From positions 98,687,646 to 98,714,766 of the forward strand of contig NC_057718.1 of the NCBI RefSeq assembly GCF_004010195.1: a stretch of DNA of 27,121 nt. The letters are read 5' to 3'. A program made the translations under genes and the position numbers. The notes beneath the pieces were generated by a model, which was not told where the DNA came from, made no database searches, and saw nothing but the letters and a program-made list of their open reading frames with translations. Below are positions 1,141 through 24,696 of the stretch, piece after piece. The first letter of the stretch is position 1. Every line of letters starts with the position of its first letter. This DNA comes from Chiloscyllium plagiosum (lineage: Eukaryota).

Positions 1141-1230
1141 TAATTGGACCAAAACCTGCTGGTTTTCATTTTATAAATGCATGCTTTGTGTTTTAACAGA
1201 GGCATAAGGGCATTAGCAGCCACACTTTAC

Positions 1231-1579
1231 CTTTGCCCTTCTTGTCTACGATGGACATGTCCGTGTTGGCGTCAGCCAGTACCTCCAGGACATTGTCGTG
1301 GCCGGCTTCAGCGGCGATCATCGCGGCGGTGCGGCCATCCTTATCCACCACGTTCGGCTCAGCCCCCAGAGAGAGCAGCAGCCTACAGATCTCCACATCG
1401 TTGGCCAGCGCGGCCAAGTGCAGGGCATATTCCCCCTGGCTGGGCTCACTCAGATTCACCAAGTGCGGCACCCCCACGGTCAGCAGCTTCTCGATCTCGG
1501 CTTTGTTCCGCTGCCGGACGTACTGGATGAGTTTGTAAACCTGCAGGATCTGGAGGCGTCCTTCTGCAATGTTTGTCAT
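1231..1579 (-). CDS. ANKEF1: Ankyrin repeat and EF-hand domain-containing protein 1, first coding exon (exon 1231-1607; gene continues left of the window)
   Basis: The translation MTNIAEGRLQILQVYKLIQYVRQRNKAEIEKLLTVGVPHLVNLSEP...ALHLAALANDVEICRLLLSLGAEPNVVDKDGRTAAMIAAEAGH...DMSIVDKKGK matches my recall of the ANKEF1 N-terminus (MALADKRLENLQIYKVLQ...ADMTIVDNEGKG). Phase-1 donor AAG|GTAAAG has GT at 1230-1229. Acceptor TTTGTGTCCAG has AG at 1609-1608. Confidence 0.93.
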
Positions 1580-1587
1580 CTCGCCAT
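1576..1587 (-). promoter_or_regulatory. Minimal upstream ORF (M-A-R-stop) whose TGA overlaps the ANKEF1 ATG
   Basis: Minus strand reads GCA ATG GCG AGA TGA CAA, and the main ATG lies within AGATGA. Confidence 0.6.
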
Positions 1588-1876
1588 TGCAACGTCAAAC
1601 TTCCCTCCTGGACACAAACTTAAAATGAAACAATGAAACATTGAGAGGTTACAATGAAACTGTATCCCTTTCCACTACCAAAAGAAAAGTCTTTGCATGT
1701 TGCTTTTGACTTTAAACAACTTGCTACATACTTTCCTAATGCTTTCGCCTCCGCTCAGGGAGAATTTGCCCTCATCCCGAGTCTCTCAACTGTCTTCAGA
1801 ACACAACATACCCGGTCGGCAGAGAAACTCTTCAGTGAGAGAGACGGTGGTGGAAACTGGAGATTGAAACGCTTAC

Positions 1877-4985: not shown

Positions 4986-6070
4986 TTACCCCTGTCAAAT
5001 GTGGGTTGATGCTTGAGCCAAAGCTGTAATGAGGTCAGGAGTTGACTGGCCCTTGCTGAACTTAATGCTTAAGTCTTCCAAGCAATTTAACTATGAATGG
5101 ATAACTTCATAACAATGTTTAGTTCCATAACAGGGGCGGCACGGTGGCACAGTGGTTAGCACTGCTGCCTCACAGCGCCAGAGACCAGGGTTCAATTCCC
5201 GCCTCAGGACTGTGGGGAGTTTGCACGTTCTCCCCGTGTCTGCGTGGGTTTCCTCCGGGTGCTCCGGTTTCCTCCTACAGTCCAAAGATGTGCAGGTCAG
5301 GTGAATTGGCCATGCTAAATTGCCCCTAGTGTTAGGTAAAAGGGGTAAATGTAGGGGCATGGGTGGGTTACGCTTCGGCGCGTCGGTGTGGACTTGTTGG
5401 GCCGAAGGGCCTGTTTCCACACTGTAAGTAATCTAATCTAATCTAAACTGAGCATCACTAGGCAGGATTTTGTGAAACAAGTGCTGTGTGATTGTATTGT
5501 TGATGCCCTCTTCTATCACAATGCTGATGATCGAGAGACAGGTTGGTAATTAGCTAGATTGAACTTGTCCTGCGTTTTGTGTACAGGACATACCTGGGCA
5601 ATTTTCCATGTTGTCAGGTAGATGCCAATGTTGTTTCTGTATTCAAACAACTTGGCTAGGATCATGGAACGTTCAAACCATATTTCAGTCCTACTGCCAG
5701 AATGTCGTCAGGACTCATAACTTTTGCATTGTCCAGCACCTTCAGCCATTTCTTGATGTTAATTGGAGTGAATTGAATTGGCTGAAGATTGGCATTTGTG
5801 GTGCTGGGGGCGTTCAAAGGGTACTGGATTGGATCATGTCACATTTGCTTCAGCCATATCTTTTGCAATGACGTGCTGGATACCCCCATCGTTGAGCATA
5901 GGAATATTTGTAGATCCTCCTCCTTCTCCAATGAGTTGTTTAGCTGTCCACCACTATTCACAACCGGACGTGGCAAGACAGCAGCATTTAGATCTGATCA
6001 GTTGGTTATGGAATTGCTTAATTCTGTCAATCACTTGATGCTTATGCTGTTTGGCATGTGAGTATTCCTG
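4986..6070 (-). mobile_element. Continuation of the minus-strand CR1-clade LINE, interrupted at 5062-5446
   Basis: Same LINE family on both sides of the insert (…GGCCCTTGCTGAAC | ACTGAGCATC…). The sequence is degenerate. Confidence 0.6.
5133..5446 (+). mobile_element. Young full-length tRNA-derived V-SINE (HE1-type elasmobranch SINE)
   Basis: A box TGGCACAGTGG, B box GGTTCAATTCC, V-domain GTTTGCACGTTCTCCCCGTGTCTGCGTGGGTTTCCTCCGGG, CR1-like 3' tail and (TAATC)n end. CpGs are retained. Confidence 0.9.
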
Positions 6071-8165: not shown

Positions 8166-8297
8166 CTTTGGACTATGGGAAGAAATCCACAGGGAGAACG
8201 TGCAAACACCGCAGACAGTCGTCCAAGAGTGGATTTGAACCCAGGTCCCTGGAGTTGTGTGGCAGCAGTGCTAACCACTGAGCCACCATGTCACCCC
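8166..8297 (-). mobile_element. Older, internally deleted V-SINE 5' part
   Basis: Reverse complement GGGGTGACATGGTGGCTCAGTGGTTAGCACTGCTGCC...GGTTCAAATCC...GTTTGCACGTTCTCCC, with CpG decay relative to the 5133 copy. Confidence 0.85.
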
Positions 8298-8399
8298 TGT
8301 TATGGAGGAGAAAGTGAGGTCTGCAGATGCTGGAGATCAAAGTTGAAACTTTATTGCTGGAACAGCACAGCAGGTCAGGCAGCATCCAGGGAACAGGAG

Positions 8400-8435
8400 A
8401 TTCGACGTTTCGGGCACAGGCCCTTCTTCAGGAAT
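8400..8435 (-). ncRNA. Minimal type-I hammerhead ribozyme (PLE family A), intact
   Basis: Minus strand AUUC-CUGAAGA-A-GGGC(CUGU)GCCC-GAAA-CG-UC/GAAU gives helix I AUUC/GAAU, helix II GGGC/GCCC, a palindromic ACGU in place of helix III and a GUC cleavage triplet. Confidence 0.85.
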
Positions 8436-9023
8436 GAGCAGAGAGTGTTCAGCAGGAGAAGATAAAAGGTAGGGAGGAGGGACTTGGAGGAGGGGCGTTG
8501 GAAATGTGATAGGTGGAAAGAGGTCAAGGTGAGGGTGATAGGTCGGAGTAGGATGGAGGCGGAGAGGTCAAGAAGAAGACTGCAGGCCAGGAAGGCGGTG
8601 CCGGGCTGGAAGGATAGTAAGTTTGCAGATGACACTAAAATAGGAGGGTTCCAATGAGGAACATTACCAGAAATTGCAGCAGTACCTTGATCGGCAGCAG
8701 AAGTGGGCTGAGAAATAACATGTGGAGTTTAACATAAGTAAGGGTCACGTCTTGCATTTTGGAAAGCCAAATCCAGGTAGGAGTTTAATAATGAATGAGA
8801 GGGTCTTAAGGAGTGTAGTGTAACAAAGGAAATTAGAGATCAGGTGCATGGTTGTCTAAAATTTGAGTCACAGATACACAGGACAGTGAAGAAGGTTGTT
8901 GGCACACTGGCCTGCATCAGGGCATTGAGGTTAGAAGGTGGGACGTTATGTTGCAGTTGTGCAGGATGTTAAATGTGTTGCTGGAAAAGCGCAGCAGGTC
9001 AGGCAGCATCCAGGGAACAGGAG

Positions 9024-9059
9024 AATCGACGTTTCGGGCATAAGCCCTTCTTCAGGAAT
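9024..9059 (-). ncRNA. Minimal type-I hammerhead ribozyme (PLE family A), core intact
   Basis: AUUC-CUGAAGA-A-GGGC(UUAU)GCCC-GAAA-CG-UC/GAUU, with a different loop II and one helix I mismatch. Confidence 0.8.
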
Positions 9060-9163
9060 GAGGAAAGTTTGTCCAGCAGGCTAAGATAAAAGGTAGGGAG
9101 GAGGGACTTGGAGGAGGGGAGTTGGAAATGTGATAGGTGGAAAGAGGTCAAGGTGAAGGTGAT

Positions 9164-9682
9164 TCCTTCGACTCCCTCCTTCGACTGACTGAACTGGTCC
9201 TCACCCTGTACAACTTCTCTTTCCAATCCTCCCACTTTCTCCAAACGAAAGGAGTAGCCATGGGCACCCGCATGGGCCTCAGCTATGCCTGCCTCTTCGT
9301 AGGGTATGTGGAACAATCCATCTTCCGCAACTACACTGGCCCCACCCCCCACCTTTTCCTCCGCTACATCGATGACTGTATCGGCGCCGCCTCGTGCTCC
9401 CACGAGGGGGTTGAACAGTTCATCCACTACACTGACACCTTCCACCCCGACCTCAAATTCACCTGGAGAGTCTCGGACTCCTCCCTCCCCTTCCTAGACC
9501 TTTCTGTTTCTATCTCGGGCGACCGAATCAACACGGACATCTACTACAAACCTACCGACTCCCACAGCTACCTGGACTACACCTCCTCCCATCCTGCCCC
9601 CTGTAAAAACGCCATCCCATTCTCCCAATTCCTTCGTCTCCGTCGCATCTGCTCCCAGGAGGACCAGTTCAAAATACGTACA
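9164..9682 (+). mobile_element. Penelope-like reverse transcriptase fragment (open frame)
   Basis: ORF 9137-9697 contains QTKGVAMGTRMG, FLRYIDD (YIDD at 9365-9376), LPFLDL, YYKPTDSHSYLDYTSSHP and FSQFLRLRRICS, all typical PLE RT/thumb motifs. Confidence 0.93.
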
Positions 9683-10454
9683 CTGTTATGGAACTAAACA
9701 TTGTTATGAAGTTATCCATTCATAGTTAAATTGCTTGGAAGACTTAAGCATTAATTTGATTTATTTCTAGTTTTGTAGAAATATGTGGACTGGTTTTTAA
9801 ATAGAGGTTATTGTGAACATTGAAGCTTTTTTTTTAACAAGGCTTCTTTGAGATCATGTTGACTGATGATACCTGCTTGATTTGCTGTAGATTCCTTGCT
9901 GGAGTTTTTTGAACAGTAACTAGCTGAGAGAGGTTCTTATTTTATCTAATTTAGTTTGAGGAAAGCCTGCTAAGAACAATCTATCCAGGTGCTGTCGCAT
10001 TTTTGTAAAGAATACACTTTTGTTGTCTGATGAAATCCATTTGCTCTTTTGAAGGAGTGATTGAAGGAACATCTCAATATTGTGTTCCTGAATCTGTATC
10101 TGCAAGAATCCAGAGGCAGTTGTGTATATGCCTTGAATGCAAGTACCACAACATCAGAGCAACCAACATTTTAACCCTAACCTAACATTTTATCCTTTTT
10201 CCTTCCTGAATAACTCTTTTAGTCAAAATATTTTGTTTCAGAGAATCAATCTCTGCAGAGACTGCTTATTTCTTTTCTTTCCTTTCTTGTGAAGAGTATT
10301 TGCCTGTGTGTCTTAGAGCTATTTAGTAGGATAAGCATTTATTTTTCTGCTAATTAATGACTGCGTTTTCATTGAATAAGATTTGATTTGATGATAAACT
10401 AATAAATATGTTTATTAAGAAATCAAGTTGATCGATTTTATTCTTTAAAACACT

Positions 10455-12621: not shown

Positions 12622-12844
12622 AGAAAATGAGGACTAGGTATTCCTGATAAAGGACTTTTGCCCGAAACATCAATTTTCCTGCTCCTCAGATGCTGCCTGA
12701 ACTGCTGTGCTTTTCCAGGACCACTCTAATCCAGCAAATGAGGACTGCAGATTGATGAAGGGCTTATGCCCGAAACATTGACATTCCTGCTCCTCGAATG
12801 CTGCCTGACCTGTTGTGCTTTTCCAGTGCCACATATTTCAACTC
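12622..12844 (+). mobile_element. Tandem dimer of PLE family A pLTR/hammerhead units with ~16-bp TSD
   Basis: Two units AAATGAGGACT...TGATRAAGGRCTTWTGCCCGAAACAT...TTCCTGCTCCTC..ATGCTGCCTGA..TG.TGTGCTTTTCCAG. Flanks are TAAACTACAAGTTAGG (12606-12621) and TAAACTTTAAGTTAGG (12845-12860). Confidence 0.8.
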
Positions 12845-13104: not shown

Positions 13105-13640
13105 ATGATGTGAAAGCAGATAAGATTCAGAGAGTACATTCAGAGATGAGGAGCTTCAGTTTTTGTGGACAGATTGGTCATGCTGGGGTTTTTTGTCATC
13201 AGAAGAGACGCTTAAGAGATTCATTGAGATACTTCAAAATTGTATGTCAGGACAGATTGGATAGGGGCACACTATTCCAGTTGGATAGGGGCACACTATT
13301 CCAGTTGCACACTATTCCAGTTGGATAGGGGCACACTATTCCAGTTGGATAGGGGCACACTATTCCAGTTGGTGGAAGTAACGAAAATGAGCAGATACAG
13401 ACTTAAGGTGATTAGCAAAAGTATTATTGGTAACATGAGGAAGAAAGTCATTACACAGCAAATGGTTAGGACCTGGAGGCAGAGTCTATCTTTTGAAAGA
13501 GAAATGGGTAGTTGACTGAAAAGGAAAGATTTTGCAGGTCTATGGGGAAAAGAATGAAACTAAGTGAGTGGTACTTGCAGCGAGCCAGTACAGACCCAAC
13601 AGGCTGAATAACCTCCTTCTGAGCTCCAACCATTCTATTT
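13105..13640 (+). mobile_element. Decayed CR1 3' fragment hosting a minisatellite
   Basis: Translation remnant RYRLKVISK...RKKVITQQMVRTW. Confidence 0.65.
13257..13372. repeat. 24-bp perfect minisatellite
   Basis: TTGGATAGGGGCACACTATTCCAG occurs four times, with one 16-bp deleted unit in the middle (24,24,16,24,24). Confidence 0.95.
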
Positions 13641-14573: not shown

Positions 14574-14871
14574 TTGGAGGAGCCAGTATTGGACTGGGGT
14601 GTACAAAGTTAAAATCACACAACACCAGGTTATAGTCCAACAGATTTATTTGGAAGCAGTAGCTTTTGGAGCGCTGCTCCTTCATCAGGTGGTTGTGGAG
14701 GTTAAGATGGTAAGACACAGAATTTGTAGCAAAAGTGTGTCAGCTTTTGCTATAAATTCTGTGACTTACAATCTTATACTTCACAACCTACTGATGAAGG
14801 AGCAGCGCTCCGAAAGCTACTGCTTCCAAATAAACCTGTTCGACTATACCCTTTTGTTGTGTGATTTTTAA
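14574..14871. mobile_element. Fold-back (palindromic) PLE family B element with two hammerhead motifs and 15-bp TSD
   Basis: Inverted arms ~14607-14735 and 14744-14873 with an 8-bp spacer. TSD is CTAGGTTTTAATGAT (14559-14573) / CTAAGTTTTAATGAT (14872-14886). Confidence 0.85.
14788..14822 (+). ncRNA. Minimal hammerhead motif (PLE family B), core intact but helix I lost
   Basis: CUGAUGA-A-GGAGC(AGC)GCUCC-GAAA-GC-UA with palindromic AGCU. The mirror copy at 14657-14691 (-) has GAAA changed to AAAA. Confidence 0.7.
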
Positions 14872-16238: not shown

Positions 16239-17105
16239 ACGACAAAAGGTAAAGGCTCCAGCAAACCCCAACACCCGGGACACTCACCTGAGTAGTCAGA
16301 CACTTCAGCGGCCGCAGCTGCAGCTCCCTCTACTAGCCCATCGGAGTCATTCACTCACCAGGCCTTAGCTGTAGAGTTTGCAAAACTCCGAGAGATGATT
16401 GAGTCTTCGATTGAAGAAAAGTTCCGCACCAGACAGGACCCAGTCATGGCCATGCTCTACAAGCACAAAGAGCAGCTGGAAGGCCTTGGACGCCGAACGG
16501 AGGAAGTTGAGAGGAGGTCCGTGGTTTTGGAAACCAAGATCGATTCCTTAAAAGAGCGAATTTGAATACTGGAGAAGCAGGTACTTACCTTACAGGAGCA
16601 CGTCAATGACCTTGAAAACAGAGGTAGGCGGGAGAATGTTTGTGTGGTGGGATTCCAGAGGGAGTAGAAGGTGACCAGCCAGTGACCTTCTTTGAAAGCT
16701 GGCTGCCACGATTTCTGAGCCTGGAGACCACATCAGACCAAGTGAAAGTTGAAAGGGCCCATCAAATCGTGATGCGCGGGCCTGGCTCAGACCAATGCCC
16801 TCATATGGTCCTAATGCAACCCCACAGCTACAGGGACAACGTTAAAGTTATGGAGGCCTGCAGAATAAAGGGACAGGATCCACAGGCCTTAACTTACCAA
16901 GGTTCTAAGATGAAGTCCTTCCAGGACTTCTCTGCAACTGTAATTCATAAAAGGAAGACCTTTGATAAAGGCAAGAGCAGATTGAGAGACCTTGGTATCC
17001 AGTATTCCCTAAGGTACTTGGCAATGCTTCTCTTTATGTGTGATGGGTCTGTGCGTACTTTTGACTCTTTAGAAAAAAGTGAATAATGTTTTGGATACTT
17101 TAAAT
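16239..17105 (+). pseudogene. L1 ORF1p remnant (coiled coil plus RRM/CTD, Transposase_22-like)
   Basis: DLENRGRRENV...GIPEGVEG...VERAH...FQDFS, with stops and frameshifts. Confidence 0.85.
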
Positions 17106-17575
17106 AGATCAGGTGGCTTAAAGGGTGTGGACAATAGTGTTTCTTTTTTTTCTTTTTCCTCTTTCCCCTTTTTTTAAGAAGGTGTTGCTGAACTTTTATT
17201 TCCCTGATATTAATGAGTGATAATGTATATTTGGGGATGGGTAGAGTGTGTATTTTTAATTTCCATTTTAATATTTTTTTATTTCTTCTTCTCCTTTTTT
17301 GGCCTGAGTCTGGGATGCGGCTCAAGCTGGAAGGAGATACAAAGGTGTTTTTGGGATACTTAAGTGCCTCCAATGGGCAGTGGGTAGAGTCTCTTGTTAT
17401 ATGGTTTGTACTTGCTTTAGTCTGTTGGTTTTTTGTACACGTAGTTATTAGGATGTTAGTTGTAGTCATTTTAGCTTATGCAATTTTTAGGTTTTGTGAA
17501 TTTTTTTTGTCTATGCTCAGCAGTTGATATGTTGAATTCTTCCTTTTTGGAGATCAAATGATGTTATAGAGAGTC

Positions 17576-20500
17576 ACGGCTAATTGTTTCCTTAAATGGT
17601 GTACATGGAATGTTGGAGGGATCCATTGCCAATTAAAGGAAAAAGGTGCTTTCTAGTCTTAGAAAGGAGAGGGTGGACATTACCCTTTTACAGGAGACTC
17701 ATCTCAATGATAATGGACACTTGAAATTGCAACGGGGTGGATTTGATCAGGTGTATTGCAGCAGGTTATTATAAGGGGAGACTTTAATTGTCTCATGGAT
17801 CCTCCGGCGGGTAGAATGCCTAAAGGCCCCTTAACAGGTTCTTCACAATCGAAACAACTAGTGGATTTATGTGCGGAATTGGGATTGGTAGTTGTCTGGA
17901 AGCGTCTGCACCCCAAGGGTCGGGACTTTATGTTTTTCTCTAATTCGCACAAGTGTCATACTAGGATTGATCTTTTCCTAACCCCTGCACTATCCCTCGA
18001 TTTGGTAGCAGCCAGTATAATTGGAAATGTCACTATTTCGGATCATGCTGCAGTATATTTAGAGACTGAGGTTATGGGCAATATTGCGGACGCTTGACAC
18101 TGGCGAATGAATCCCTCTATTCTGAGAGACAGTAAATTCATTGAATATTTCCTCAATGAATTTAAGGTATTTTTAATCCATCAATTCGGATACGGCTAGT
18201 AACTTGTCTATTCCTTGGGAGACAGCTAAGGCTTATGCTAGGGGGATAACCATTTCTTACTCTGCTAGTCAGAAACGACAGAAGGGGGAGCAACAGCACC
18301 TGCTTGAGGTGCAGTTAAAGACCACTGAAAAGTCACATTTTGATAAGCCATCAGTGGTTAAGTTGCAGTGGGTTACGGCTCTTATGCAGACAGCAAGGAA
18401 GGAACTTTCCTTCATGAAACAAAGACTGTTTGAACATGGTGACAAGCCGGGCAGGTGCCAGCATATCTCGCCAGGAGAACGAATGCTCCCCAAGCCATTA
18501 CCTCAATCAGGGGTGGGACTGGAATGGTCACTTTCGACTCTAAAAGGATCAATGCAGCATTTTGGAAATTCTATTCTAAATTATATCAGTCTGAATGTTG
18601 TAAGGGTGGATGGGCTAAGATGGAGTCTTTCTTTAAGAACCTGGATCTTCCAAGAGTTACTTCTAAGCAGGCGTCTTTCCTTAATGCCACTTTAACAGTG
18701 CAAGGGTACAGGAGGCTGTGAAACAGATGCAGAGTGGGAAGGCGTCTGGTCCTGATGGTCTCCCTAGCGAGTATTACAAAGAATTTATAAGTATAGTGTC
18801 GGGACCAATGTTAGACATGTATACTTACTCGTATAGTCAAGATCGTCTCCTGTCATCCCTACGAGAGGCTAATATTTCTCTCATTCTCAAGAAAGGGAAG
18901 ACTCCAGAACAATGTGCCTCCTATAGGCCCATCTCACATTTGAACTCTGATTTTCAAATTTTGTCTAAGGTTCTTGTGTTAAGGTTGGAAACTGTGCTGC
19001 CTTCTATTGTGAAGGATGACAAACGGGTTTTATAAAAGGCCATAGATGCTCTAATAATGTCAAGAGGTTGCTGAATATGATTCAAGCTTGTCAGCAGCAG
19101 TCAGTTCAGGGGCTAGTGATCTCCTTAGGTGCAGAAAAGGCACTGATTGGGTCGCGTGGCCATATCTTCTTTATACCCTGGAGCGATTCGGATTGGGGGA
19201 GGTTTTTATTAGGTGGGTGAGGTCCTTTATACTGATCCTTTGGTGGCGGTTCTCACCAATGGTGTGATGTCTAGTAATTTTAATATCTGTGGGGCATTCG
19301 ACAAGGCTATCCCTTCTCGCCATTCCTTTTCACATTGGTGATTGAGCTGCTGGCAGAGGCAATCCGCAGGGATCCTAATATGGCTGCCCCAAAAGTAGGA
19401 TCTAAATCACATAAGATCTCATTATACGCAGATGATATTTTTGTTTTTCTGTTGAATCCAGTGGTCTCTGTATCCCATCTGATACAATATCAATTCATTT
19501 GGCTCCATTTCGCGGTATCAGATTAATTTCTCAAAATCAGAGGGTATGCCTGTGGGTGAGGTCTTAGGAGAGTATTTGATATGCAGGGTGAATCACGGTT
19601 CCCCTTCAAATGGTCCCAGGAGGGTTTTCTTTATTTAGGCATCTTTGTTACACTTGTCTTTGATCGGTTGTTCAAGGCCAATTTTGCCCACTCGCTCGAC
19701 AGGATTAAGCAAGATCTTCAGTGATATGAGGCGCTTCCAATACCCTGGCTAGGCCGGCTAGCTCTTTTCAAATGAATGATCTCCCCCGTTTGCTGTATCC
19801 TATACGAATGCTCCCCTTAATTTTTCCGAGACAAACATTCCAGAGACTTAACGGATGGTTTAGCTCCTTTACTTGGAGCCGCGGGCAGCTTCTTACCAAG
19901 CTGTCTAAGTTGCAGTTGCCTCAGGGGAGGGAGGGGAACAGATTTCCCGGATACCAATTAAGTTCCCTTCTTTCGCTTGTTAGTGACTGGGCTTGTAAAG
20001 ACCCGGCATCAATACGGCTGGATATAGAGGCCTCCCAGGCAATCCCTTATTAGCTTGCTGTTTTTCGATAAATTGAAGACGGTCATGGAATATTGCAGTA
20101 ATCCGATAATTATTAATAGCATCACGGTATGGAGGACAATGCGACAGAGGGAGAGTAATATATCCAAAACGCTTTTTCTTACTCCTCAAGCTGATATGTT
20201 GGGTTTTCAGCTGGGGATAATGGATTCTGGATTTAAGCTCTAGGCAGCTATGGGAATCTCTTGTTTGGGCGATTTTTTAGAAGGTGAAATAATGGTGTCA
20301 TTTGACTAAATAATCCGTAAATATAGTTTAGATAGCAGAGACCTATTTTGCTTCTTTCAGGTCAAGGATTTTATTCAAAAAGGTACCACGTTTTTGACCG
20401 ACCCCTGCAGATCTGTTATGGAGAAGATGATGCTTCATGCTAAAAGTACTCTCTCTATTAGTAATCTTTATCATTTGTTAGGGGGTGATCTTTCAAAGTG

Positions 20501-21105
20501 GCTTTGTGGGGTCTGGGAGAGAGAATTAGGGTCAAAATCTCTCGGGAGACATGGGGGTACATTTGCGTGAATGCTAGGAAGATTTCAATCTGTAAGAGGA
20601 CCCATGTCATGCAGGTGAAGATTTAGCATAGGGTTCCACCTGGCCCCAGACCGTCTCTCAAAATTGTAGGTGGGAGTATCTTCATTATGTCCTAAGCATC
20701 AAACAAGCATTGGCACTCTCAATCATTGTTTATAGACTTGCCACAGGGTCCGTATATACTGGAGTGCTGTGGCAGGAGTTATAGAGAGAGTCTTGGGGGC
20801 CGATGTTGAGATGGACCCTATCTCTCTTCTCCTAGGCCTACCCAATATGTCTTCCCTGGACGTTTATGGGAAAAATACTTTTTAATATTCTTACTTCCTG
20901 TGCAAGGAAAAATATTCTAATGTGTTGGACTTCTGAACCCCCCCCCCCCCCACTCCGGGGTCTGTTGGGTTGGCATATGCTTATCATGGATCTTTATACG
21001 GAAATGGTACACCGGAAAATTTAAAATTTTTATAGGATAGGACAGCCCTTTCTGGACTATTTGGATGTAGATTTATCTGCCATCTTAATGAGGGCATGTG
21101 TGTAA
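17576..21105 (+). pseudogene. L1 ORF2p remnant (APE endonuclease plus RT plus C-terminal domain)
   Basis: TWNVGG, LLQETH, GDFN, RIDLFL, SDH, GPDG, YRPIS, QGYP.SP and YADD (19425-19436), ending LDVDLSAILMRACV*. Many frameshifts. Confidence 0.92.
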
Positions 21106-23401: not shown

Positions 23402-23677
23402 GTATTACTAAATCTCAAATAATTTAGTAAAGTTTAATGTGCTTGTAACAGGTTAGTTCTATGATAGATGTTGCATGATACTTTACCAATGTTATTTGAA
23501 AATTGATTTAAAAAAAAAAATCCATTCTTGGAATTTGGGTGTTGCTGGCTGGGCAGCATGTATTGCCTGTCCCCAGAGGTTTTGTACTTGGGAGGGATTT
23601 TCAGAGCTGGAACCATGGTGAAAATTCTTGTTCATCTCTGTCCTTTAAAGTTCCAGCATTCATAACCCAGGAAAGAG
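23205..23677 (+). repeat. Copy 1 of ~473-bp near-identical direct duplication
   Basis: Matches 24847-25319 at a constant offset of 1642 with about 6 substitutions by eye, and includes sequence beyond the CR1 tail. Confidence 0.95.
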
Positions 23678-24696
23678 TTGAAACTTTATTGCTGGAACAG
23701 CACAGCAGGTCAGGCAGCATCCAGAGAACAGGAGATTCGACGTTTCGGGCACAGGCCCTTCTTCAGGAATGAGCAGAGAGTGTACAGCAGGAGAAGATAA
23801 AAGTTAGGGAGGAGGGACTTGGAGGAGGGGCGTTGGAAATGTGATAGGTGGAAAGAGGTCAAGGTGAGGGTGATAGGTCGGAGTAGGATGGAGGCGGAGA
23901 GGTCAAGAAGAAGACTGCAGGACAGGAAGGCGGTGCGGGGCGGGGGGGATGCGGCTGAGACAAGGTGGGGGGAGGGGGGATGAAGAAACTGGTGAAGTCC
24001 AAGTTCATCCCCTGTGGTTGGAGGGTTCCCAGTCGGAAGATAAGACGCCCCTCCTCCGACCGTCGGGTTGTTGTGGTTTGGCGGTGGATGAGTCCAATGA
24101 CCTGCATATCCTCGGTGGAGTGGGAGGGGGAGTTGAAATGCTGTGCCACAGGTTGGTTGGGGTGGTTCGTCCGGGTGGCCCAGAGGTGCTCTCTGAATCG
24201 CTCCGCAAGTAGGCGGCCTGTCTCCCCAATATAGAGGAGGCCACACCGGCTGCAGCGGATGCAGTAGATAATGTGGGTGGAGCCACAGATTCACCTGTGC
24301 AGCTGGTGTGGCCTCCTCTATATTGGGGAGACAGGCCGCCTACTTGCGGAGCGATTCAGAGAGCACCTCTGGGCCACCCGGACGAACCAACCCAACCAAC
24401 CTGTAGCACACCATTTCAACTCCCCCTCCCACTCCACCGAGGATATGCAGGTCATTGGACTCATCCACCGCCAAACCACAACAACCCGACGGTCGGAGGA
24501 GGAGCATCTTATCTTCCGACTGGGAACCCTCCAACCACAGGGGATGAACATGGACTTCACCAGTTTCTTCATCCCCCCTCCCCCCAACTTGTCTCAGCCG
24601 AATCCCTCCAGCCCGGCACCGCCCTCCTGACCTGCAGTCTTCTTCTTGACCTCCCCGCCTCCACCCTACTCCGACCTATCACCCTCACCTTGACCT
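23678..24696. mobile_element. Palindromic PLE: pLTR plus GIY-YIG on minus strand (23678-24282) joined head-to-head to GIY-YIG on plus strand (24283-24696)
   Basis: IYCIRCSRCGLLYIGETGRLLAERFREH...VAHHFN...LIFRLGTLQPQGMN is a PLE GIY-YIG endonuclease. Inverted arms are 23856-24254 and 24298-24696. Confidence 0.92.
23735..23770 (-). ncRNA. Minimal type-I hammerhead ribozyme (PLE family A), intact
   Basis: Identical to 8400-8435 and located 3' of the GIY-YIG coding region on the element's sense strand. Confidence 0.85.

What the first reader, a model, noticed from the sequence alone, without database searches (positions are those of the whole stretch)
8297..9692. Composite Penelope insertion carrying a dead CR1 passenger between two ribozyme-bearing pLTRs
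Seen: a 10-bp direct repeat CTGTTATGGA bounds pLTR(-), CR1 RT fragment, pLTR(-), PLE RT(+). The PLE parts look young (open frame, CpGs kept), while the CR1 piece is internal, tail-less and decayed, so it is unlikely to have inserted itself. The two pLTRs are different variants (loop II CUGU versus UUAU). Inference: the 1376-bp block arrived in one event, either by PLE-mediated transduction of DNA between hammerhead-bearing repeats (retrozyme-like mobilisation) or by serial RT template switching.
Basis: partly seen in the sequence, partly recalled or inferred. Interest (0 to 1): 0.72.

Follow-up and report, generated by a model that had tools for sequence, protein, structure and literature searches.

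The report
Likely assembly-made Penelope-CR1 chimera
A Penelope-type jumping gene sits here between two 10-base target repeats, but the dead LINE fragment inside it is likely a gap-filling error of the genome assembly, which appears to have pasted one real locus into 27 unrelated Penelope copies, so it is probably not captured cargo.

Summary
All described parts are in the assembly, and the 10-bp repeat is very likely a true target duplication: a nearby 72-nt inverted copy keeps the empty site. The CR1 piece occurs at 28 places. One is a real founder site, a Penelope stub in a contiguous CR1 with a 9-bp duplication (L080). The other 27 look like gap fill. 21 of 27 run into N gaps at shared positions. 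The shared block has 4 differences in 9,840 nt, against 47 private letters in 6,639 nt of the adjoining arms. In three copies CR1 resumes in exact register without homology. Three gap-free copies lose the same 216-228 nt wherever CR1 stops. One variant is stitched from two unrelated loci over a 25-nt overlap. Unrelated host DNA shows the same pattern (control). Here the fill abuts an older Penelope arm exactly at a 50:50 family branch point. Verdict: ordinary Penelope insertion plus likely artefact (0.85). A real young CR1-carrying family remains possible (0.07); no reads of the assembled individual were tested. The scan has reported similar 'cargo' Penelope cases elsewhere in this genome; they deserve the same check.

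The parts
8297..8306 (+). Left copy of the target-site duplication CTGTTATGGA; its last GGA also matches the element's own 3' extension (microhomology)
   Evidence: three sibling copies (L028, L046, L048) match leftwards to 8304 and one (L038) to 8303
8307..8339 (-). 33-nt optional PLE 'tail', common to the A and B subfamilies; likely real local sequence
   Evidence: 3' ends of siblings cluster at 8303-8307 and 8339-8345; present in 12 of 25 junction loci, absent from founder L080; cf. PMC11167929
8340..8615 (-). A-type pLTR with minimal hammerhead core (C3 at 8431, predicted cut after 8404, loop II CUGU). First tens of bases may be real; the distal part is likely filler (A8611 is shared with the founder locus)
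8616..8970 (+). Decayed CR1-type RT fragment; first 355 nt of a 394-nt path. Positions 1-268 equal the founder locus C8:3.659 Mb at 267 of 268 sites; the rest has no assembled native source. Likely gap filler at this locus
8971..9163 (-). B-type PLE 3' stub with hammerhead core (C3 at 9055, predicted cut after 9028, loop II UUAU); 3 differences from the majority of 14 best B copies; begins where B copies split 11 CTGA : 10 CTGG of 24
9164..9682 (+). Inverted PLE reverse-transcriptase fragment, B-type at five diagnostic sites, open frame, 10 private letters in 520; best other genomic copies 96-97%
9683..9692 (+). Right copy of the target-site duplication
   Evidence: a contig of organism B stops matching exactly at 9683 (record 32)
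8188..8296 (-). Head of a tRNA-type SINE (family label recalled, no call) whose 5' end abuts the left duplication
   Evidence: 82% match to the SINE at 5124-5238
5062..5133 (-). 72-nt exact inverted copy of 9683-9754, joined to the head of another SINE; reads SINE head - one CTGTTATGGA - right flank, i.e. a record of the empty site
   Evidence: (only two copies among 28 matches)

Best explanation
The locus holds an ordinary Penelope-like insertion bounded by a 10-bp repeat that is likely its target duplication, and the CR1 passenger with the adjoining pLTR stretch (about 8340/8587-8970) is likely a gap-filling artefact of the assembly. Shown: one founder locus (C8:3.659 Mb) has a PLE stub inside a contiguous CR1, and the same pLTR-CR1 text stands at 27 other PLE sites. 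Here the right arm, built from local reads with private letters, stopped at a B-family branch point (8971). What truly lies between about 8345 and 8970 is unknown. Either an A-type PLE piece of a few hundred bases sits against an older B-type insertion (I put this at 60%), or one B-type copy of about 750 nt with tail (40%).
For: (1) 21 of 27 non-founder copies run straight into N, at shared path positions 476 (8), 455 (7), 689 (3), 334 (2), 593 (1). (2) 410 nt x 24 loci show 4 differences from the majority; the PLE arms of 17 siblings carry 47 private letters in 6,639 nt, so about 70 were expected (Poisson P about 6e-25; 29 of the 410 nt were selected by the search pattern). Arms of 5 siblings differ pairwise by 7-14 of 300, so they share no master. 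(3) In 3 loci (L081-L083) ordinary PLE runs 14-17 nt past the junction and CR1 resumes in exact register with no homology. (4) In gap-free L043, L044, L047 CR1 stops at 167, 192, 283 and colinear PLE resumes at offsets -221, -228, -216; loose-null P 2.4e-4. N-gapped copies give -206, -211, -290, -329 and +221 to +468; 14 of 15 offsets lie about 200 or more from zero. L045 (N edge) and L047 (abutting) resume at the same PLE position 809. (5) Variant 2 is founder (1-326) plus unrelated locus L129, joined over an exact 25-nt overlap, with a base at 327 from neither. (6) Control: non-TE host DNA beside a 119-nt PLE stub (L117; empty paralogue L118) stands identical inside PLEs at 4 other loci, in register after 13, 19 and 23 extra PLE bases in 3 of them, and ends at one position (N edge in 2, abutting PLE in 1). 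(7) The founder lacks the 33-nt tail that 12 of 25 junction loci have. (8) The 8970/8971 junction is unique, blunt, and at a B-family 11:10 branch. PMC8557442 (passage) notes that PLE structures cause problems in short-read assemblies.
Against: No reads of the assembled individual were tested, so the case is internal to the assembly. The window has no N. The 8970/8971 junction has no overlap of the kind that merges two extensions. Path positions 269-394 and the CR1|PLE junction at 394 have no native locus and differ from all 15 fetched paralogues at 11-18 of about 126 sites. Exact runs of 25 nt or more between founder and paralogues also occur earlier where no jump happened, so '25' is suggestive only. 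L042 has offset +72, no N and a 14-bp duplication, and looks like a clean composite. Real capture of host DNA between pLTRs is documented in rotifers (PMC3846280, passages). The assembler used is unknown to me. A single B copy would need a +623 gap error, outside the -329 to +468 seen.
Confidence: 0.85

Rival explanations
1. A real, very young PLE subfamily carries the CR1 scrap between two hammerhead pLTRs (read-through into the founder's flank, retrozyme-like) and has spread to 27 sites; here its cDNA jumped to a second, B-type RNA.
For: 28 places share the CR1 text, 11 others are 100% identical over 8600-8970, and candidate duplications of 11-17 nt bound 7 of 25 junction loci. 14 loci share the CR1|PLE junction. 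Precedent: Pen1_Av spacers and pLTR-flanked cargo (PMC3846280).
Against: Copies of one master should have identical upstream PLE arms; they differ by 2-5%. It does not explain the in-register chimeras, the constant -216 to -228 offsets, three stitched variants, the tail missing from the founder, or the same behaviour of host DNA. The duplications show only that a PLE insertion exists at each site.
Confidence: 0.07
2. Each locus is a real, independent two-template product: PLE RT starts on a normal RNA, crosses by pLTR homology to a transcript of the C8 founder, then switches back.
For: It would explain identical left blocks beside diverged arms, and tail present or absent. PLE RT starts internally and can nick its own pLTR (PMC11167929). 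Variant junctions lie in exact shared runs.
Against: It needs 27 switches onto one stub transcript among thousands of PLE copies (5,158 first-look candidates for the RT piece). Switch-back points have 0-1 nt of homology yet conserve total length. Exact register without homology occurs in 6 loci over two donors.
Confidence: 0.05
3. The pieces are separate local insertions (old CR1 in place, PLEs added on each side) and the 10-bp repeat is coincidence.
For: The 10-mer occurs 4 times in the window, once unrelated at 20413. The two PLE pieces differ in subfamily and divergence.
Against: The 72-nt inverted copy joins a SINE head to one CTGTTATGGA and the right flank with nothing between. The CR1 piece belongs to a C8 paralogue cluster and is contiguous with CR1 only there. 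A contig of organism B stops at 9683.
Confidence: 0.03

Closest known systems
Endonuclease-positive Penelope-like elements, Neptune-type (Craig et al. 2021, PMC8557442; passages seen)
   Same: RT plus C-terminal GIY-YIG ORF (Pfam RVT_1 1e-8; GIY-YIG 3e-4, just under its cut-off), a CX4CxxC motif between them, pLTR, optional 30-40-nt tail, 5' truncation with an inverted piece, short target duplication.
   Different: The window copy is a fragment. Clade rests on the linker motif only; no tree was built.
[quoted passage not shown]
   Same: Core with an extra base between 9 and 10.1, G10.1-C11.1 pair, palindromic ACGU in place of helix III, short helix I.
   Different: Helix II is 4 bp, against 7-8 bp in the Schistosoma motifs. 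The B copy has a mismatch in helix I. The monomer does not fold as a hammerhead (z +1.5 and +0.5). Cleavage untested.
Host DNA between pLTRs in Adineta vaga: Pen1_Av spacers, Pen3a-NRPS (Arkhipova et al. 2013, PMC3846280; passages seen)
   Same: Layout pLTR - foreign DNA - pLTR inside a target duplication, with an empty site.
   Different: There the spacers differ between copies. Here the cargo is identical at many loci while the PLE arms are not, and it abuts N gaps.
Non-LTR retrozymes (bioRxiv 10.64898/2026.07.22.740005; first of five parts and passages seen)
   Same: A pLTR-CR1-pLTR unit of about 700 nt with two hammerheads would fit the size range (51-972 bp) and a PLE origin.
   Different: No head-to-tail array of the unit was seen, the two pLTRs here are different subfamilies, and no RNA was tested.
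Mis-filled scaffold gaps from gap closers (PMC9575681 and 10.1101/2021.02.26.432990; passages seen)
   Same: Both say gaps are often closed with wrong sequence at repeats; the first calls GapCloser greedy, the second says gap sizes are imprecise.
   Different: Neither passage describes this PLE-exit pattern. The tool used for this genome is not known to me. '-p 25' was seen only in an unrelated genome paper (PMC6995116); that it is an overlap length is recalled.

Membership tests
EN+ Penelope-like element insertion | PLE RT with C-terminal GIY-YIG in one ORF | tested here: met
   Window RT piece 152/162 identical to the 749-aa ORF at L060, which hits RVT_1 and, just below cut-off, GIY-YIG
EN+ Penelope-like element insertion | pLTR with hammerhead motif and optional 30-40-nt tail | tested here: met
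   Cores by pattern; two classes of 3' end about 34 nt apart. Rfam gave no hammerhead hit
EN+ Penelope-like element insertion | Target-site duplication with an empty site | tested here: met
   10-bp repeat; 72-nt inverted record of the empty site; organism B contig ends at 9683. No full empty allele was read
Neptune clade | CX2-5CxxC linker motif and RT phylogeny | tested here: inconclusive
   Motif CNRRRCNTC present in the L060 ORF; no tree built; Nematis shares the motif (PMC8557442)
PLE-transduced cargo family | Daughter copies share one master: cargo and PLE arms equally alike | tested here: not met
   4/9,840 in the shared block versus 47/6,639 in arms; 7-14/300 pairwise
PLE-transduced cargo family | Donor locus with cargo next to a pLTR | tested here: met
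   L080, with 14 uninterrupted paralogues; the donor accounts for only 268 of the 355 nt
PLE-transduced cargo family | Junctions supported by reads | tested here: inconclusive
   Only contigs of other individuals were laid and the tables were swamped by repeats
Non-LTR retrozyme | Tandem units each with a complete type I hammerhead | tested here: not met
   No repeated pLTR-CR1 unit in any fetched locus; most are cut by N, so longer arrays cannot be excluded
Non-LTR retrozyme | Self-cleaved, circular RNA | not tested
   No RNA run was laid; no RNA holder listed
Gap-fill artefact | Filler identical across loci, tied to gap edges and gap length, mosaic of unrelated loci | tested here: met
Gap-fill artefact | Filler k-mers at single-copy depth and no spanning reads in the assembled individual | not testable with these tools
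   No run identified as the assembly's own reads was laid

The most novel reading that the evidence does not exclude
A hammerhead-flanked scrap of dead CR1 from one chromosome-8 locus became a mobile unit driven by Neptune-type PLE enzymes and reached 27 sites so recently that copies are identical: a retrozyme caught at birth in a vertebrate, with cDNA jumps between PLE subfamilies.
Probability: 0.07. Interest if true: 0.65.

Novelty: not a real feature. Interest (0 to 1): 0.15.

Why it matters
Biologically little remains: a routine Penelope insertion. Methodologically it matters for this scan. In this assembly, 'PLE carrying cargo inside a target duplication, with a near-identical donor elsewhere' can pass the obvious tests (donor found, many copies, duplications, empty site) and still likely be made by gap filling. 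The cheap discriminators used here are register, length offset against an intact copy, N-edge sharing, and divergence of cargo versus arms. If the rival were true, it would give a dated, testable case of retrozyme origin from a PLE.

Tried and rejected
Rfam gave no hammerhead; its 8 hits are weak miRNA matches to hairpins or AT-rich repeats elsewhere. Pfam found nothing in the 186-aa window RT frame alone and the PDB search nothing meaningful; identity came from L060. My first reading after one search was a real young composite family; I dropped it. A search for other copies sharing the B arm's private letters found only this locus. Searches for a native source of path 269-394 found none. Contigs of 3 samples of organism A and 1 of organism B (4 of 24 listed runs) were laid on 8222-10300. 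At 8699 and 8718 all counted depth in the 3 A runs carried another letter than the window, and X5 had no cover at 8728, 8831 or 8834. This fits absence of the CR1 path, but the founder allele was not seen either, records are filtered and counts overflowed in 3 runs, so I do not use it as evidence. Whether those individuals carry the insertion could not be read from the tables. Word shares of 0.54-0.57 are also not interpretable. No RNA holder was listed. The duplication finder missed the window's own repeat and L038's 15-mer (seen by eye) and gave one spurious hit (L032). Offsets are relative to L060, which has a private 20-nt insertion; add 20 for a typical copy. The founder was left out of the 24-locus count because its pLTR is internally short by 191 nt. 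Paper searches: 'Penelope+hammerhead+pLTR+transduction' 0 papers; 'Penelope/short-read/gap filling/chimeric/artifact' 8 listed, none on this pattern by title and abstract start. No supplements were read. Look-ups of earlier findings by sequence and by words were empty.

Full report
OBSERVATION. CTGTTATGGA stands at 8297 and 9683. Between them lie an A-type PLE 3' end on minus (8307-8615), a CR1-type RT piece with stops in all frames (8616-8970), a B-type PLE stub on minus (8971-9163) and an inverted RT fragment (9164-9682). The RT piece is 94% identical to a 749-aa ORF at L060 with RVT_1 and a sub-threshold GIY-YIG hit. That ORF has a CX4CxxC linker motif, which PMC8557442 (passages) ties to Neptune and Nematis. 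Both ends hold a minimal hammerhead core, loop II CUGU and UUAU, of the kind described in PMC4209133 (passages).

THE TARGET DUPLICATION IS VERY LIKELY REAL. Bases 9683-9754 have an exact 72-nt inverted copy at 5062-5133 and no other copy among 28 matches. The copy abuts a SINE head exactly as the left repeat abuts a SINE head at 8296, so it reads SINE head - one CTGTTATGGA - right flank. Contigs of two other samples of organism A begin at 9725, which is where a 31-mer graph would branch if both copies exist (9755 minus 30; inferred). A 904-nt contig of organism B matches 9683-10296 and stops at 9683 with at least 26 letters that do not fit the RT (record 32).

THE CR1 PIECE HAS A DONOR AND MANY COPIES. 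8600-8970 is 100% identical at 11 other loci. The pLTR|CR1 junction occurs 25 times and an inner CR1 34-mer 28 times. One place, L080 on C8, is the founder: CR1 continues on both sides, 14 fetched paralogues are uninterrupted, and TAGTAAGTT is duplicated.

WHY THAT READING FAILS. (a) 21 of the 27 other copies run into N, at a few shared positions. (b) Over 24 loci the shared 410 nt show 4 differences in 9,840, while the adjoining PLE arms of 17 siblings show 47 private letters in 6,639 nt, like ordinary copies (117 in 18,654). Five arms differ pairwise by 7-14 of 300. One master cannot give this. (c) In L081-L083 the ordinary PLE runs on for 14-17 nt and CR1 then resumes in exact register, with no homology. 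(d) Where CR1 stops without N (167, 192, 283 nt), colinear PLE resumes 221, 228 and 216 nt early, the same deficit as N-gapped copies (-206, -211); 14 of 15 offsets are about 200 or more from zero, and the founder's own stub is 191 nt short. (e) Variant 2 of the path is the founder joined to an unrelated C41 locus over an exact 25-nt overlap. Variant 1 leaves the founder after a 25-nt run shared with 7 of 14 paralogues, although longer shared runs occur earlier without a jump. (f) The founder has no 33-nt tail, yet 12 of 25 junction loci do. (g) As a control I searched a non-TE filler found in one sibling. It has its own founder (L117, empty paralogue L118) and stands identical inside PLEs at four other loci, three of them in register after 13, 19 and 23 extra PLE bases, ending at one shared position.

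THIS LOCUS. The right arm is B-type in both pieces and carries about 2% private letters found nowhere else, so it was likely built from local reads. It begins where B copies split 11 CTGA to 10 CTGG of 24, a natural stop for an extension. The left 664 nt carry no private letter. The junction between them is blunt and unique. I infer that a gap was filled from the left along the founder path until its estimated length was used. The true middle is unknown. Siblings keep local letters up to 8341, which suggests that the A-type start is real; an older B insertion would also have a 5-nt microhomology (TGGAA) with the empty site. So A-against-older-B is somewhat more likely than one B copy. PMC11167929 (parts 1-2 of 4 read) describes the two RT start sites behind the tail and nicking of the element's own pLTR, which would allow such tandem placement.

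AGAINST MY READING. No read of the assembled individual was tested. Path 269-394 has no assembled source. L042 looks like a clean composite. Real pLTR-flanked cargo exists in rotifers (PMC3846280, passages). The laid contigs of other individuals were swamped by repeats and are reported only under Tried and rejected.

COMPARISON AND VERDICT. The real remainder is a member of a known kind, an EN+ PLE insertion with tail, inversion and target duplication. The composite fails the one-master test for a transduced family and the tandem test for a retrozyme. I found no paper on this PLE-exit fill pattern in two searches; general statements on wrong gap closure are in PMC9575681 and 10.1101/2021.02.26.432990 (passages). 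PMC7202002 and PMC6995116 (passages) added only usage examples. Two earlier scan notes on this genome (e1-9966855, e1-9834496) describe similar cargo as real; I did not test them. Best explanation 0.85, interest 0.15.

Noticed in passing
window 5062-5445: A SINE (+) with a (TCTAA)n tail carries a 72-nt 5' extension copied exactly from the flank of another SINE 4.5 kb away (9683-9754), and sits in an old LINE without a clear duplication. It looks like a local templated insertion guided by SINE-head homology, made from the empty allele. Contig starts at 9725 in two other samples fit its being real; the organism B contig shows no such branch.
   Followed up: partly
window 23676-24696: A second A-type PLE: 3' part on minus (97% to 8341-8615, tail-less end) followed by a 399-nt inverted copy, 96% complementary; source of the weak Rfam miRNA hits.
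   Followed up: partly
L050-L063, L065-L078: Most 'ordinary' PLE copies in this assembly also lack 180-430 nt of the GIY-YIG region or hold repeated chimeric pieces (the same ref 1013-1063 scrap in L052, L054, L093; the same junction in L068, L074, L075). Gap fill likely affects PLE annotation genome-wide.
   Followed up: partly
L080, L084, L085, L145-L156: A cluster of at least 15 paralogous CR1-bearing blocks about 90% alike, mostly on C8 and unplaced scaffolds: an old multi-copy segmental duplication.
   Followed up: no
window 1196-1594 (-): Ankyrin-repeat coding exon (Pfam Ank_2 3.6e-14); the finding lies about 6.7 kb upstream of it on that strand.
   Followed up: no
window 14611-14868 and 12640-12834: Further short PLE-like ends: a 125-nt fold-back pair, and two tandem hammerhead-bearing stubs 82% alike to the pLTRs.
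   Followed up: no
window 16296-20600 (+): A long decayed LINE with coiled-coil ORF1-like, endonuclease-like and RT-like frames (L1/Tx1 type by recall).
   Followed up: no
window 13233-13395: 24-nt tandem repeat, about six copies.
   Followed up: no
L060:569-2818: The 749-aa PLE ORF holds an in-frame 39-aa tandem duplication before the RT core; real or fill not tested.
   Followed up: no
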